Source of the DNA: Nostoc sp. DedSLP01
GTDB taxonomy: Bacteria; Cyanobacteriota; Cyanobacteriia; Cyanobacteriales; Nostocaceae
NCBI GenBank assembly: GCA_034530875.2
Contig: JAVRCJ020000024.1
Span: 32,001-96,000, forward strand
Length of the DNA stretch: 64,000 bases
Reading direction: 5' to 3'
The position numbers are program-made. This document shows positions 12,001 through 39,000 of the stretch, in pieces (position 1 is the stretch's first letter; the number at the start of each line of letters is the position of its first letter).

Positions 12001-15000
12001 ACCGATAACAGCATTTAGCAATGGTTGGTTTGGGTTAAAGTTATCTGAGTACAAAAATAAGTAGTTGTCCCATTCTTTTGGGGTTGTAGCAATACTTAGA
12101 AAATCATACAAACCTTCAGTTTCAACTTTAAACCCGAATGTATTGTAACTAGTAACTGTACCGATACCTGAAGGTAAAGTAGGAATGTTTGCATTCTGTG
12201 CAACAAAGGGACGAGTCCATGTTGATTCTCCTATGGTAGTGCCTGTATAAGTAAAATCGAAAGCTTGTGCGGGTTTAACGTTAATAACAGCAACAGATAA
12301 TGTCAAACCAGCGGTAGTAATGCCTAACTTTTTCGTGAATTCCATCGGATAATTCTCCAAACGGATAGTAGGAAACTATCTACACGCGCAAAATGAAAAT
12401 CGAACTAGTCATTAATAGGCAGTACCAGCCAGTAAAGAGTAAATAAGTTTTATGGTCTGCTGCATAAGAACGCAACACTACTAATCGTAAAGCGATAATA
12501 CAGCTAAAGAAGAAAAGTACAATATCCCACAGCATAACTACTAAGCTATTGCCTGCTGGCATCATCAAACACCAATGGATTAAAACTGGGAATATCAAAA
12601 AGCAAAGGCTCACAAAAATTCGACTAAAATTCTCTCCGAATACCAGAGGAAATGTATTGCGACCAATTGCTTTATCGCCTGGAATATCACGAAAATCTTG
12701 AACAGATATCAGTATTATACACGCAGTACATAATATTATTAACCATGACCAAACAACAGGAGAAATTGGCGCTACCATTTGCCAAGCTGCTCCCATCTCA
12801 GACATAATACCAAATCCACTAAGAATATTTTTTGCCATCCAATTTTTTGCACCGCCTAAATTATTATGAATAATAAAATTGAACTGCCATAAAATTGCCC
12901 ATTCAAGTACTCCCAACCACCAAGCTACTGCTGTAAGCAGCATCATAAATACATACCCACGAATTTCAGCATCCTGATAGGAAATGATTCCTTGCGCCAG
13001 CGGCCGGTCTGGCTTGTTGATTTTGTCTTCTTCGATATCACTGAGTTGGTTGGATATACAAAATGAAGTAATACACAACCAAAAATATATTAAACTACTA
13101 GCTAATATTGATATTCCATCAATCAATGAGATGGGAGGATGATTCACTAAAGCAGTTGTAGTGAATAACAACCCAGGCACTATTGACATTGTAATATCGC
13201 GGCGAATAAATAGCCAGTTTATTTTTAGTTCTTCAGCAGTATTTATGAAGACTAATTTTGGCAAAAGAAGAATTAGGTTGCTGATGGCGATCGCACTTTG
13301 AAAAATATTAAATGAAAATCTTCCTGGAGTCTCTTCTTGTAATTTTTCTAAATCTAAGCGAACGATATTAATCTGCTGTTTAGCCTCGTTATGCGGAGAT
13401 ATAGCTTCAACAGCCTTATTCAGAGTTTGATCGGCCATATTTTCCTCTAGCAAGTGGATAAAATCAATGAACGCAGCAAATAATAAAACTGCTAATTACG
13501 TCAGCCCCAATATTGATGTATGCAAAACTAAGAGATTAATTTTTCTGTTATAAATTGCGATTGTATAAATACTTCCGCAATTATTAACTACCGAAAAACA
13601 GTAAAGGTGAATAATAATTTACTCAAGTTTCAAACTGATTTTGCATCTTCTCATCAGATGAGAGCAGTTGCTAGTTTTGCAACATTCAATAGACCTCTTG
13701 CATAAATATCGTTTTTCCTACAAAAGTTATTTATGAAAGTTATTTTTGTGCAAGAGGTCTACTCTTTGAGGAAATCTCGTTGTGAATTTACTCTTGTTAC
13801 TACCACTTAATCCTATGGGACAAGAATTTATCCATGCATCGTTCTGCTAAAGCTGCGATGGTTAGGGAAGGATTAGCACCTGCTGAACCTGGAATCAGAG
13901 AACCATCAACAACAAATAAATTAGGATAACCATAAACCTGGCCGTAGGTATTGCAGACTTTTTCCATAACTGCACCACCAAGGGGGTGCGTTGTGCCATT
14001 AGCATCAGGCGGCCCTGCAACGGTATTATCGTTGGCTTTGTTAATGAGTTGATATGTATGCTGCAATGCTTGAGAATTTTTCTGGTTGTTAGGTGAGTTT
14101 GTAGGCCAGAACAAATCAGCTGACTGGGTAGAAGTATTGTAGGTGAGATAGCCCTCTGGTTTAGCGATCGCCTGACCAAGGGTAGCAATTACACCATCTT
14201 GTAAATTAGGCAGAGGAGTCTGTTCGATAATCACCGGGGCAATAGGATTATCGAAGTGTTCGATGACTGATGTAGCTGGGCCACCTTTTGTAGGATTAGT
14301 TGGATATTTGTTGATAATGGCGCTGAGTGCATCACCGTTAGTTCCCCAAAACTTTCCTACATACTTATTCAAGCAGCGTAATGTGCCATGAGCCTTAGCA
14401 CGCAGCAACAATTCAGTAGTTCCAATCGAACCAGCTGCTAAAAATAAATAGCGACAAATCAAAGATTTTTGTCCAATTACAGTCCCTTGCTCGTTGATGC
14501 GATTAGAAACTATTCGGAAACGTCCATTATTTAATTCCTCTATCCTAGTTACCACGTGCAGAGGTCGAATTTCGACATAACCAGTGGCTTCTGCTTTCTT
14601 GAGGTAATTTTTGTCTAAGCTATTTTTTGCACCGCTGTTCGCTCCATAAATTAATACACCATTAATAGCAGAAGCAACTTTCTTGCCTGCAATTTCCTGA
14701 CGAACGATATCCCAATCAACTGCCATTGTGTGTTTGCGGACTTTGAGACCAGCCTTAGCTCCCTGCTCTAAAAAAATCCGGCTTGCTAAATAGTAGTCAG
14801 TTTGTAAAATATCGTCTGGTATGACAGCCGACTTGATAATCGAACGCACTCGTGGGTAATAGACTTTATCTAATTCTTCGTAGCTGATACTACGTGGAAA
14901 GGCTTTATAAAAGATTTCTCGATCTGGCTGATAGGTAACAGCACTGTAAACCAGGGAACTACCTCCAACGCCAGCTCCACGAAAGGCATTAATACCATTG

Positions 15001-36000: not shown

Positions 36001-39000
36001 TGGTAGATAAGGTTTGGCAGCTTCTCGCAATATGTATTTGACATTCATGCCACGAATCTTCAATGAAACAGGAATATTGCGCACTGTTTCTACAAGTTCA
36101 TGGTCTAAAAATGGTAGTCTTCCTTCTGTAGAATGCGCCATTTCTGCACCATCTCCCAATATCCTAAATAGGTAGGGTAGAACAGTTTTAGACCATAAAT
36201 AAAGAGACTGATGAACGGGTTCTCGTTTTGCTAGTTGTCCTTGGACGTCGATTTCATTGAAGAATATACGATATGCATCTCGCTGGCCAAAGTGAGCTAA
36301 AAATTCTGGTGAGTATAGAGAAAGAGATTTGGCATATCCTTTAGCATTAGCTTCTATCCAAGTGGGTACAAACCCTAAAAGGCGTTCGATATTAGCCAAA
36401 GGTTTGGATATTTCTTCAGGTAAGAAACCGGCTGCGGCGGAGACTTGGTTGTTACGTTTTAATTCTTCCAAGATATGCTTGATAGTCTGTTCGTCTTGAC
36501 CTTTGGTGTTGTAACGCAACATGTCCATCAGAAAATGAACGTAGCCGCCAAAGATTTCATCAGCACCTTCACCTGTAAGTACAACTTTGTAACCTGCTTT
36601 TTGTACTGCTCGACTCAAAAGGTACTTAGCAGCAGCGCCAGCATTGATACACACCATTTCACAGTGCCAAATGGCGTCTGCAAAATGCTCGGCTAAGTCA
36701 GATTGAGTGATGGGGACAATTTCATGGTTTGCTCCAGCTTTGGCTACTGCTTCCCGAGCGAAAACTTCTTCGTTGTAGTCTTCGTGGTCGAAGGCGAGGG
36801 TAAATGCTGTAATTGGCTCGCTTGTATGGGTGGCCGCAATTCCCAACACCGCAGATGAATCAATTCCGCCACTAACGTGACAAGCTACCGGTACGTCTGC
36901 TCTTAACCGCAGTCGTATAGACTCGTTTAAACTATGGCGAACTTGTTGAATATAATCTTCTTCGCTTTGTTGGGGTTGTACATCGTTATTGGGGTAATCA
37001 AAATCCCAATAACGATGCAGTTGGATATTAGTACGAGATGCGAGTAGAAAATGTCCGGGTGGTACTTGATATATGTTTTTGAAGAAAGTCCGATCTGGGC
37101 TGAAGAGTCCGAGATCGGCTCTAAACCAAAATTCGCTATCCCAGTTAGCCGGAACGCCCGCAGCAAATAAAGCTTTGACTTCTGAAGCCAAGTACAGTGT
37201 ATCGCCATGCATAGTGTAGTACAGAGGCTTGATGCCAAAGCGATCGCGCGCTGCAAACAATGTTTGATTGCGCTCATCCCAGATAACAAAAGCAAATTCA
37301 CCCCGCAAATGATGGAGACATTGAGTGCCAAACTCGTTATATAGATGAATCGCAATTTCGCTGTCAGAGTGGGTTTGCAGCTTATATCCTTTTTGCTTTA
37401 AGTCCTGCTGTATCCTCTCAAAGTCATAAAACTCTCCATTGGCAACAATATGGAGTGTGCCATCTCGATCGCTTATTGGTTGGTCTCCACTAGTGAGGTC
37501 AATAATACTAAGCCTTCTATGTCCTAACCCGACTCTGCCATCTTCGGAAATCCAAACCTTCTGTGCGTCAGGGCCTCTATGATGTAGGCTATCTATTCCT
37601 CGCTTCAAAGAGGTTTCGGAAATTGGTTCCTGTCTTGAGAACAATGCTACAATCCCACACATTTGCTGATTCTCCTTTGAAAAATTTTGAGATAGTTTGA
37701 ATGTTTTGGCGTCAAAACATTATTTAGTGGATGAAATCATAATATTGAGAAAAACATTAGGTGTTAAAACGGTTGTGTTGTAAGGCTTTGGGAAAAGCTA
37801 AAGTTTTTGTGAAAATTACAGGCGATCGGAAAATCTAGAGTTATCGTATTAACTGTCGGAATCAAAGATTAACATCTACCCTTAAATCAAAGTCTTTCCA
37901 TTGCTTTGTAGTAGTTAAAAAATTTTTGCAATTTACTAATTGAACCTGCTTGCAAGCGAGCTCAAAATTCCTTGACTGTTCTAGATAGTAACTGAATTTG
38001 GCGAATGGAAAGTAAATTCTTCGGGTGAAGAAAAAGCCAAAATCACTGTACCATTTTTTCCAATCAATTCAACAGAGATTTGCTTATTTTTTGAAATATT
38101 CCAAATCACTCGCCTAATTTGATATTAGCCCAAAGGATGATTTTCCTGGTTCTATATGGTTGTCAATTCTTCTAATTAGGTTACATACCTTAGCTTGTGA
38201 GTAGTTGATGAGAAACCTACGCATAAGTAAGTAACCCATTTTCTTAGTCAGAAAAGCACAGAGATAATATTTGTAGACTCTACAAAAGTTGTTCAATTAA
38301 CTTTGATAGGGTTAGCCCTATCAAGCTAGTTTTCATTAATCTCGAGCTTAATAATTGTCTAAGCCAATTTCGGATTGCTGTAAATATCAAAGCTTCTAAA
38401 GTCCTTTATTATAACTAGATTTTTCTACAAGATAAATACTCATTAATCTGAGATTAATGACAATGTTTGATAGAAAAAGCAAGGATTAAAAGGCTGGTTT
38501 TGAAAACCGTTGGAAAAGTACAAAGCTTCTTTAAAGCTCGATAGCTATAACTCAACAGCATTACTTCTGTTTATTATTCACAACCAGCAATTAGGATAAT
38601 AGTACCCTTAAGGGTACTTTTTTTGCTGTATGCAATGCTGGCCTTTAATGGAAAGTGTTGAAACTCTATCACTGATTAATTTGTAGCCAATAGCTTATTT
38701 AGGATTTATAGGAAACCTATGAGAACGACTAACACTAAATCAGCTTTAGAAAGCTAGTCTGGGATCAAACCCTGTCTATCAAGTTTAACCTCGTTTAATC
38801 TTTGCGATCGCAGAATACGACAATTTTGGTCTTTGTAAATTTAGGAAAGGTTAACATTAAAGTAAATTTTGGTTTTTTCTAAACTCAAGGCTAAATGTAA
38901 ACAAATGTAACTAGATATGAATTTTTAGTAACAAAAGGATCGAGATCGACTCAATGGCAAATAACAAAATACTGTTTTGTTATACATAGCGATCGAGCTA

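What a model noticed while it worked through the whole genome (the two positions that open the first line are those of the whole stretch)
12380..37662. Thioesterase-less enediyne-type PKSE cluster with ChlA-like halogenases and a carotenoid-type oxygenase
An iterative PKS with the enediyne-type order KS-AT-ACP-KR-DH-PPTase and three DUF1702 genes lacks the thioesterase and the other core enediyne genes. It is joined instead to an AsnB amidotransferase, two flavin halogenases closest to Dictyostelium ChlA, a carotenoid-cleavage dioxygenase and a carotenoid-type aldehyde dehydrogenase. This conserved cassette points to a halogenated, oxidatively cleaved polyene pathway rather than an enediyne core.
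Evidence so far: Gene content in calls 29, 33, 41: ChlA 38-40% identity at E 1e-140, GxGxxG and WxWxIP motifs intact; the only 4HBT thioesterases lie on other contigs. The order PKS - 2 halogenases - ALDH - CCD - DUF1702 recurs in 17 loci of Nostoc, Anabaena, Fischerella, Pelatocladus, Halotia and a Leptolyngbyaceae bin; no thioesterase-like ORF was recognised within 10 kb. One carrier is Fischerella muscicola SAG 1427-1, a species that makes the ene-diyne fischerellins, whose cluster is unknown (PMC8406139, passages). Searches 35, 49: no paper.
(Added by a program. Inside this text positions count along the whole contig: contig position 32,001 is position 1 of the stretch shown here. "Call 12" and the like, gene names such as g00115 and contig names such as C1 are that model's own, and its searches are not shown. 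The text may have been shortened before it was handed on; [...] marks where a part breaks off. The agent that wrote the report below was given it as the finding of a first reader that could run no searches.)

Follow-up and report, generated by a model that had tools for sequence, protein, structure and literature searches.

The report
Thioesterase-less polyene halogenation and cleavage cluster
A conserved cyanobacterial gene cluster pairs a cousin of the enediyne-antibiotic polyene synthase with halogenases and a carotenoid-cutting enzyme in place of the usual release enzyme, so it probably makes a still unknown halogenated, shortened polyene.

Summary
The genes and their order are real and intact; no thioesterase, E4 or E5 is present. 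The synthase belongs to a halogenase-linked sister lineage of true enediyne PKSEs (KS 48-53% identical). Its clade holds 29 loci: thioesterase 0/29, carotenoid oxygenase (CCD) 28/29, halogenase 26/29, DUF1702 26/29, DUF302 23/29, AsnB only 8/29 (94). Two different CCD subfamilies were recruited. Best reading (0.5): halogenated polyene, cut by the CCD, oxidised to an acid, here amidated. CCD as the release enzyme is unproven: 13 relatives lack both thioesterase and CCD, and one has both. A PksE with three halogenases was already noted as an orphan in Microcystis (PMC2442094); the CCD/ALDH, thioesterase-less variant was not found in print. The ChlA identity could not be re-tested; the fischerellin link is weak. 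The scan noted a PKSE-halogenase-CCD operon with thioesterase on other DNA (e1-2855511).

The parts
35740..37662 (-). AsnB-type glutamine amidotransferase, intact (Cys2, SGGxDS); subclade add-on
   Evidence: TIGR01536 456 bits over cut 267; motifs; 8 of 29 clade loci
35102..35602 (-). DUF302 protein; core gene of unknown role, not a hotdog thioesterase fold
   Evidence: PF03625 (4); 23 of 29 clade loci, 0 of 38 others; model matches 1q9u Z 16.8, 7tj1 Z 15.8
28119..34925 (-). PKSE-like iterative type I PKS, 2268 aa, KS-AT-ACP-ACP-KR-DH-PPTase-like, no thioesterase, no ER
   Evidence: Pfam; KS C216/H349/H390, AT S695, ACP S1081 and S1176, KR Y1636, DH H1775/D1954; ACP best solved match CalE8 2l9f; close relatives labelled enediyne polyketide synthase by JGI
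26178..27998 (-). Flavin-dependent halogenase 1 (606 aa)
   Evidence: PF04820 (4); best solved match PltA; GxGxxG, WxWxIP, FDPFYSLG; K85 invariant in 109 sequences
24082..25953 (-). Flavin-dependent halogenase 2 (623 aa), 70% identical to halogenase 1
   Evidence: (K84)
22611..23966 (-). Class 3 aldehyde dehydrogenase; cluster-specific paralog (61% to the copy on C8)
   Evidence: PF00171 (4); ALDH3 solved matches; E211, C245 (81); tree
21145..22650 (-). Carotenoid cleavage dioxygenase of the 9,10-cleaving (CCD1-like) type; extra paralog (62% to the copy on C51); true start probably at a later ATG
   Evidence: PF03055 (4); best solved match carotenoid 9,10-dioxygenase 9m3e; H195, H244, H308, H488; three CCDs in the genome; trees
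20188..21129 (-). DUF1702 (UnbL / enediyne E3-like) copy a
   Evidence: PF08012; all-helical model pLDDT 89.6 (61)
19236..20156 (-). DUF1702 copy b (69% to copy a; recent duplicate)
18213..19130 (-). DUF1702 copy c (47-48% to a and b; second conserved type)
15681..17813 (-). RTX calcium-binding repeat protein; accessory, close relatives only
   Evidence: PF00353, far below RTX toxin cut-offs; 7 of 29 (94)
13800..15350 (-). GMC (cholesterol-oxidase-like) oxidoreductase with a twin-arginine-like leader; recurrent accessory gene
   Evidence: 10 of 29 clade loci, 5 of 38 others
12380..13453 (-). UbiA-family protein with NxxxDxxED and QDFRDxxGD motifs (terpene-cyclase type by recall); close relatives only
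   Evidence: PF01040 (4); motifs; 5 of 29 (94); two paralogs elsewhere in the genome
9443..11654 (-).
   Evidence: 9 of 29, 0 of 38 (94)
5716..8991 (-).
   Evidence: permease in 15 of 29 and 5 of 38 (94); also stand-alone elsewhere
39285..43215 (+). Divergent MarR regulator and DevBCA-type exporter; probable export arm
   Evidence: TIGR02971, TIGR01185, TIGR02982 over cut; DevB in 11 of 29 and 15 of 38 (94)

Best explanation
An orphan biosynthetic cluster for a halogenated, chain-shortened polyene acid or amide. (1) The self-priming iterative PKS condenses malonyl units and reduces and dehydrates them to an ACP-bound conjugated polyene (enzymes intact: shown; product: inferred from PKSE chemistry, length unknown). 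(2) Two flavin halogenases add halogen, using reduced flavin supplied from elsewhere in the cell (motifs shown; substrate and halide inferred). (3) The CCD cuts one C=C bond to give an aldehyde, either on the tethered chain, which would also release it, or after release by an unidentified route (inferred). (4) The class 3 ALDH oxidises the aldehyde to the acid (inferred). (5) In the window's subclade and in Scytonema, AsnB makes the primary amide (inferred). DUF1702 and DUF302 proteins bind, chaperone or help modify the reactive polyene (guess); DevBCA exports the product (inferred).
For: All catalytic residues present; dN/dS 0.08-0.31 against G580 (96, rough). One PKS clade of 29 loci (KS tree SH 97 for 26 rows; KR-DH tree 99 for 29 rows): CCD 28/29, ALDH 26/29, halogenase 26/29, thioesterase 0/29; outside it CCD 1/38 (94). 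The CCD and ALDH are extra paralogs beside housekeeping copies. Scytonema loci use a CCD of another subfamily (29-30% to the window's), again next to an ALDH and AsnB, so a C=C-cleaving enzyme was recruited twice. PKSEs make polyenes (PMC9992847, introduction) and CCD1-type enzymes cut polyene double bonds to aldehydes (PMC5133782, passages). Gene order aldehyde-maker, aldehyde oxidiser, amide-maker is chemically coherent.
Against: No product, expression or enzyme data. The PKS is only 48-53% identical in KS to canonical PKSEs and differs in KR and DH motifs, so its programme may differ. Flavin halogenases mostly act on electron-rich aromatic rings (PMC8407142, passages; established knowledge), not linear polyenes. 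CCD tunnels evolved for methyl-branched carotenoids; action on an unbranched, ACP-bound chain is untested. 13 halogenase-type relatives lack both thioesterase and CCD, and L167 has a fused thioesterase, four halogenases and a CCD, so the CCD need not be the release step. Loci are kin, not independent.
Confidence: 0.5

Rival explanations
1. Aromatic route: the PKS leaves the last ketides unreduced, the chain cyclises and releases itself as a polyenyl phenol or pyrone, the halogenases act on the ring as ChlA does, and the CCD and ALDH trim the side chain to a haloaryl(alkenyl) acid or amide.
For: Explains the missing thioesterase without the CCD. Fits usual flavin-halogenase chemistry. Seven thioesterase-less sister loci carry an O-methyltransferase, and five a small ABM-like protein, like the PKS-halogenase-methyltransferase logic of DIF-1 (recalled). 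DUF302 has weak likeness to helix-grip proteins including aromatase/cyclases (Z 6-7, within background).
Against: KR and DH are intact; no cyclase or product-template domain recognised; the CCD scores higher with carotenoid than with lignostilbene dioxygenase models (348 against 290 bits, both under cut) and is a paralog of the housekeeping CCD1-like enzyme.
Confidence: 0.2
2. Cryptic halogenation: halogenases and DUF1702/E3 proteins turn polyene double bonds into alkynes, giving a polyyne or ene-diyne; fischerellin would be one case.
For: E3 is one of the genes that build the enediyne core (PMC10760148, passages); iodinated intermediates are known there (title of Gui et al. 2024 in a reference list; content recalled). 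One of the 150 best E3 hits is fused to a flavin halogenase (P0324). No FAAL-ACP-desaturase set was seen beside 4 of the 8 desaturase matches of F. muscicola that I inspected.
Against: E4 and E5 are absent. E3 shows no conserved His or Cys metal set. Many halogenase-type loci lack E3 and Scytonema loci lack both. Fischerellins are halogen-free, nitrogen-heterocyclic and partly saturated (recalled); the F. muscicola locus has no AsnB, NRPS or ER in the fetched DNA; producers were unsequenced. I put fischerellin itself at about 0.05.
Confidence: 0.12
3. The CCD and ALDH are turnover or self-protection genes that destroy excess or damaged polyene; the real product is the full-length halogenated polyene, released by a housekeeping 4HBT thioesterase or by hydrolysis.
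For: Three YbgC/FadM-like thioesterases exist in the genome; PKSE release is not fussy about the thioesterase partner (PMC9992847, for enediyne TEs); 13 relatives manage with neither enzyme.
Against: CCD and ALDH sit in the middle of the operon between halogenases and E3 genes with gaps of 15-115 bases and are kept in nearly all clade loci; the housekeeping 4HBTs barely score on the enediyne-type thioesterase HMM.
Confidence: 0.12

Closest known systems
Orphan 'PKSI iterative' cluster of Microcystis aeruginosa PCC 7806 (Frangeul 2008, PMC2442094; Humbert 2013, PMC3741299; passages)
   Same: Iterative PKS like PksE in architecture and sequence with several halogenases; product unknown. Halogenases of the window's family occur in Microcystis at about 61-62% identity.
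   Different: Window clade has CCD, ALDH, two or three DUF1702 and DUF302, and no thioesterase; I saw no gene table for the PCC 7806 cluster (figure not held). Twelve related loci here carry a fused double-hotdog thioesterase and no CCD.
Minimal enediyne PKS cassette E3-E4-E5-PKSE-TE (C-1027, calicheamicin, dynemicin, tiancimycin)
   Same: Domain order, ACP type (CalE8 best match), DUF1702/E3.
   Different: No E10, E4, E5; two ACPs; separate KS and KR-DH lineage; halogenases, CCD, ALDH, AsnB added. Canonical cassettes exist separately in cyanobacteria (9 loci with stand-alone TE, 94).
Dictyostelium DIF-1 pathway, halogenase ChlA (title in a reference list, PMC6864650; rest recalled)
   Different: Identity not re-tested here. 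ChlA chlorinates a free phloroglucinol ring; no aromatic substrate is evident in this cluster.
Apocarotenoid acid routes: CCD plus class 3 ALDH (Nostoc NSC1/NosCCD, PMC5133782 passages; crocetin and neurosporaxanthin logic, recalled)
   Same: C=C cleavage to an aldehyde followed by oxidation to an acid; same enzyme families.
   Different: Here extra paralogs sit in a polyketide operon; the presumed substrate is an unbranched polyketide, not an isoprenoid.

Membership tests
Enediyne PKS cassette | PKS with KS-AT-ACP-KR-DH-PPTase order | tested here: met
   PPTase by recalled motif only; two ACPs
Enediyne PKS cassette | PKS groups with canonical-cassette PKSEs | tested here: not met
   sister lineage in KS and KR-DH trees of cyanobacterial loci, long separating branch, KS 48-53%; no actinobacterial reference in the trees
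Enediyne PKS cassette | Hotdog thioesterase E10, separate or fused | tested here: not met
   0 of 29 clade loci; controls 21 of 38 (94); 7, 59
Enediyne PKS cassette | E3 (UnbL, DUF1702) | tested here: met
   three copies
Enediyne PKS cassette | E4 (UnbV) and E5 (UnbU) | tested here: not met
   0 of 29; found in 9 and 10 of 38 other loci
Enediyne PKS cassette | Makes pentadecaheptaene or an enediyne core | not testable with these tools
   needs expression
Flavin-dependent halogenase | GxGxxG, WxWxIP, Fx.Px.Sx.G-like motif | tested here: met
   motif definitions from PMC8407142 passages
Flavin-dependent halogenase | Catalytic lysine | tested here: met
   K85/K84 align with the PltA lysine (its catalytic role recalled); invariant in 109 sequences
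Flavin-dependent halogenase | ChlA is the closest characterised enzyme | not testable with these tools
   no ChlA sequence or paper held
Flavin-dependent halogenase | Halogenation activity and halide used | not testable with these tools
   needs assay; no flavin reductase recognised in the cluster (4, 5)
Carotenoid cleavage dioxygenase | RPE65 fold family with four iron-binding histidines | tested here: met
Fischerellin pathway (unknown) | Nitrogen-installing (NRPS or amidotransferase) genes in the F. muscicola locus | tested here: inconclusive
   none in L006 and L036, but the locus is split over short contigs

The most novel reading that the evidence does not exclude
The CCD cuts a halogenated polyene while it is still bound to the ACP, a new oxidative chain-release mechanism for polyketide synthases, and this halogenase family, helped by E3-type proteins, halogenates linear polyenes; the clade then makes a new class of halogenated apo-polyene acids and amides across heterocystous cyanobacteria and offers a way to assign E3 a function apart from E4 and E5.
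Probability: 0.25. Interest if true: 0.85.

Novelty: new variant of a known kind. Interest (0 to 1): 0.6.

Why it matters
PKSE-like synthases outside enediyne pathways have almost no assigned products. This clade occurs in cultured, sequenced strains (for example Fischerella thermalis PCC 7521, Nostoc sp. NIES-4103), so its product can be found by halogen-guided metabolomics. It would show carotenoid-degrading enzymes recruited into polyketide tailoring or release, give a substrate to a widespread uncharacterised cyanobacterial halogenase family (538 proteins), and provide a natural setting to test the unknown enediyne protein E3, whose predicted fold matched no solved structure in my two searches.

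Tried and rejected
Fold searches of the E3 model: no match (Foldseek best E 0.36; VIA best Z 4.3); this does not show the fold is new. Sequence search of E3 against solved structures: nothing. Halogenase 1 with E3a complex prediction: no verdict, score 0.00, no evidence either way. DUF302 as hidden thioesterase: rejected, it is an ordinary DUF302 fold. 'CCD strictly replaces the thioesterase': rejected as a rule. Nrt-like importer as a dedicated halide importer: not supported, the same binding-site motifs occur in stand-alone copies. RNA runs: none was listed. Promoter and terminator scan: no excess over shuffles. The careful maximum-likelihood KS tree did not finish; trees are quick IQ-TREE or FastTree with SH-like support only. 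Loci G228 and G300 (DUF1702 without a PKS in the DNA fetched) were left out of the 67-locus table. Desaturase neighbourhoods in F. muscicola: 4 of 8 matches inspected, none in an alkyne cassette. Literature: ten searches gave no paper on this cluster or its product; the library lacks most subscription journals, and figures, bioRxiv supplements and the cluster tables of PMC4247773 were not seen, so an earlier listing of these loci there is possible.
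Full report
Observation. The minus strand from 37662 to 12380 carries AsnB, DUF302, a 2268-aa PKS, two flavin halogenases, an aldehyde dehydrogenase, a carotenoid cleavage dioxygenase (CCD), three DUF1702 genes, an RTX-repeat protein, a GMC oxidoreductase and a UbiA-family gene. Gaps between core genes are 15-224 bases (the ALDH-CCD overlap of 40 bases probably reflects an upstream ATG). 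Catalytic residues are present in KS, AT, both ACPs, KR, DH, both halogenases, CCD, ALDH and AsnB. A rough dN/dS against the orthologous locus in G580 is 0.08-0.31 for all 12 genes compared.

What is missing. The genome (113 contigs, 99.8% complete) has three 4HBT thioesterases, on other contigs, of YbgC/FadM type below their cut-offs, and no UnbV match (which had no positive control). I built a thioesterase HMM from stand-alone E10-type genes and fused domains: it finds a thioesterase in 21 of 38 related loci and in 62 of the 120 best PKS homologs, but none in the window or in the 30 closest homologs. E4 and E5 profiles likewise hit canonical loci only.

What the PKS is. Its ACP matches CalE8 best among solved structures and JGI labels close relatives 'enediyne polyketide synthase'. 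A KS search hit 55 of 389 genomes of the family at E <= 1e-130 (only four candidates were scored per genome, so this may undercount). I annotated 67 loci. They fall into canonical E3-E4-E5-PKSE-TE cassettes and a separate halogenase-linked lineage, joined by a long branch; KS identity of the window to canonical ones is 48-53%, and KR and DH motifs differ consistently (xWYxFxN against AxYxLxN; RDxLLQ against RDAxxH). So it works like a PKSE but is not a member of the cassette family, and its chain length cannot be assumed.

The clade. The window belongs to a clade of 29 loci (SH 97 for the 26 with a KS; 99 for all 29 on KR-DH). Counts in the fetched DNA, which is often cut by contig ends: thioesterase 0, CCD 28 (the miss ends at the PKS), ALDH 26, halogenase 26, DUF1702 26, DUF302 23, Nrt-like permease 15, extra FAD monooxygenase 11, DevB 11, GMC 10, ECF41 9, AsnB 8, RTX 7, UbiA 5. 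In the other 38 loci: CCD 1, ALDH 0, DUF302 0, halogenase 26, DUF1702 20, AsnB 3. Named carriers include Nostoc, Desmonostoc, Anabaena, Halotia, Fischerella, Pelatocladus, Nostochopsis and Scytonema records. Hence AsnB, UbiA and RTX are add-ons, DUF302 is core, Fischerella-type loci have a third halogenase, and the neighbourhood extends to the DevBCA exporter on one side and the ECF41 and importer genes on the other. The window's CCD is an extra paralog of the CCD1-like housekeeping gene (62%), its ALDH an extra class 3 paralog (61%). The two Scytonema loci have PKS-CCD-AsnB-ALDH with a CCD from a different subfamily and no halogenase or DUF1702, which points to two recruitments of a C=C-cleaving enzyme. 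Kin are not independent, so these counts are not a statistical test.

Results against a simple story. Thirteen halogenase-type loci with the PKS end and downstream genes in view lack both thioesterase and CCD, so the lineage has some other release route. Among 74 metagenome loci, L167 has a fused thioesterase, four halogenases and a CCD 65% identical to the Scytonema type, and L170 a CCD remnant, so a CCD can coexist with a thioesterase. The CCD is therefore best read as a tailoring enzyme that may also release the chain in this clade.

E3 and DUF302. The E3 model is confident and all-helical (pLDDT 89.6); its invariant positions are Gly, Asp, Glu, Arg and Trp, with no His or Cys set, which argues against a diiron or heme oxidase. 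DUF302 has the ordinary DUF302 fold.

Mechanism. Most likely (0.5): ACP-bound polyene, halogenation, CCD cleavage to an aldehyde, ALDH oxidation to the acid, AsnB amidation in some strains, export. Shown: gene content, intact active sites, conservation, paralog status. Inferred: every chemical step and their order. Rivals: self-release as an aromatic ring that the halogenases attack (0.2; seven sister loci add an O-methyltransferase); cryptic halogenation to alkynes (0.12); CCD and ALDH as turnover genes (0.12).

Fischerellin. F. muscicola SAG 1427-1 carries the clade locus and a second PKSE-type KS, but its locus shows no AsnB or NRPS, fischerellins are halogen-free and partly saturated (recalled), and PMC8406139 says the producing strains lacked genomes. 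I found no alkyne cassette at 4 of 8 desaturase matches inspected, so the link is not excluded; about 0.05.

Prior work, with what I saw. PMC2442094 (passages): Microcystis PCC 7806 has an iterative PKS like PksE with three halogenases, product unknown. PMC3741299 (passages, Table 2): same cluster, 15-16 kb. PMC4247773 (passages, one section, text of supplement 1): enediyne KS clade in cyanobacteria; its figures and cluster tables were not seen. PMC9992847 (first of 7 parts, passages), PMC9682884 (first of 3 parts), PMC10760148 (passages): five-gene cassette, TE-dependent heptaene. PMC8407142, PMC6864650, PMC5133782, PMC4849077, PMC4558948, bioRxiv 2022.10.12.511943 and 2026.09.06.749771: passages, none describing this cluster. 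Searches found no account of the CCD/ALDH, thioesterase-less variant.

Verdict. A real, conserved, orphan cluster: a new variant of the known cyanobacterial PKSE-halogenase kind. Interest 0.6; 0.85 if CCD-mediated release of a halogenated polyene is shown (probability 0.25).

Noticed in passing
G000 family survey; e.g. L075-L076, L083-L086, L091-L092: A second thioesterase-less subtype: PKS, separate PPTase ORF, two halogenases, small ABM-like proteins, DUF2855 and a divergent O-methyltransferase (8 loci in one clade); resembles PKS-halogenase-methyltransferase logic and suggests an aromatic product.
   Followed up: partly
L043, L081-L082, L089-L090, L097-L098, L101-L103: A third thioesterase-less subtype: split PKS, two DUF1702, two or three halogenases, GMC and the Nrt-like importer, mostly without CCD.
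   Followed up: partly
L044-L045, L048, L114-L127: Canonical E3-E4-E5-PKSE-TE enediyne cassettes in about ten cyanobacterial genomes, with few tailoring genes nearby.
   Followed up: partly
P0047, P0059, P0064, P0111 and others: PKSE-like proteins of about 3000 aa with fused double-hotdog thioesterase and a phytoene-dehydrogenase-like domain, in several phyla and one archaeal record; another case of a carotenoid-type enzyme joined to this PKS family.
   Followed up: no
window 5716-8991: NrtA-like ABC importer whose binding protein lacks the His of the NrtA GGTHD motif; 67 of 389 family genomes have it, and the closest copies mostly flank these clusters. Ligand unknown.
   Followed up: partly
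window 12380-13453: UbiA-family protein with motifs typical of membrane terpene cyclases (recalled); two paralogs on C13 and C58.
   Followed up: no
P0374: DUF1702 fused behind a ThcOx/nitroreductase-type oxidase domain.
   Followed up: no
window 10717-11654: Two YciI genes 98% identical in tandem, a very recent duplication, before an ECF41 sigma factor.
   Followed up: no
window 37663-39284: The 1.6-kb AT-rich gap lacks the AraC-type response regulator that five close relatives carry between MarR and AsnB.
   Followed up: no
L002 4542-5380; L024; L249 17343-17603: Decay in some relatives: both halogenases are reduced to fragments in L002, the ALDH is split in L024 and cut short in L249.
   Followed up: no
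L026, L028, L029, L027, L009: An AurF-like metal-dependent hydrolase family gene (PF10118) recurs in about seven clade loci; a candidate extra tailoring or release enzyme.
   Followed up: no
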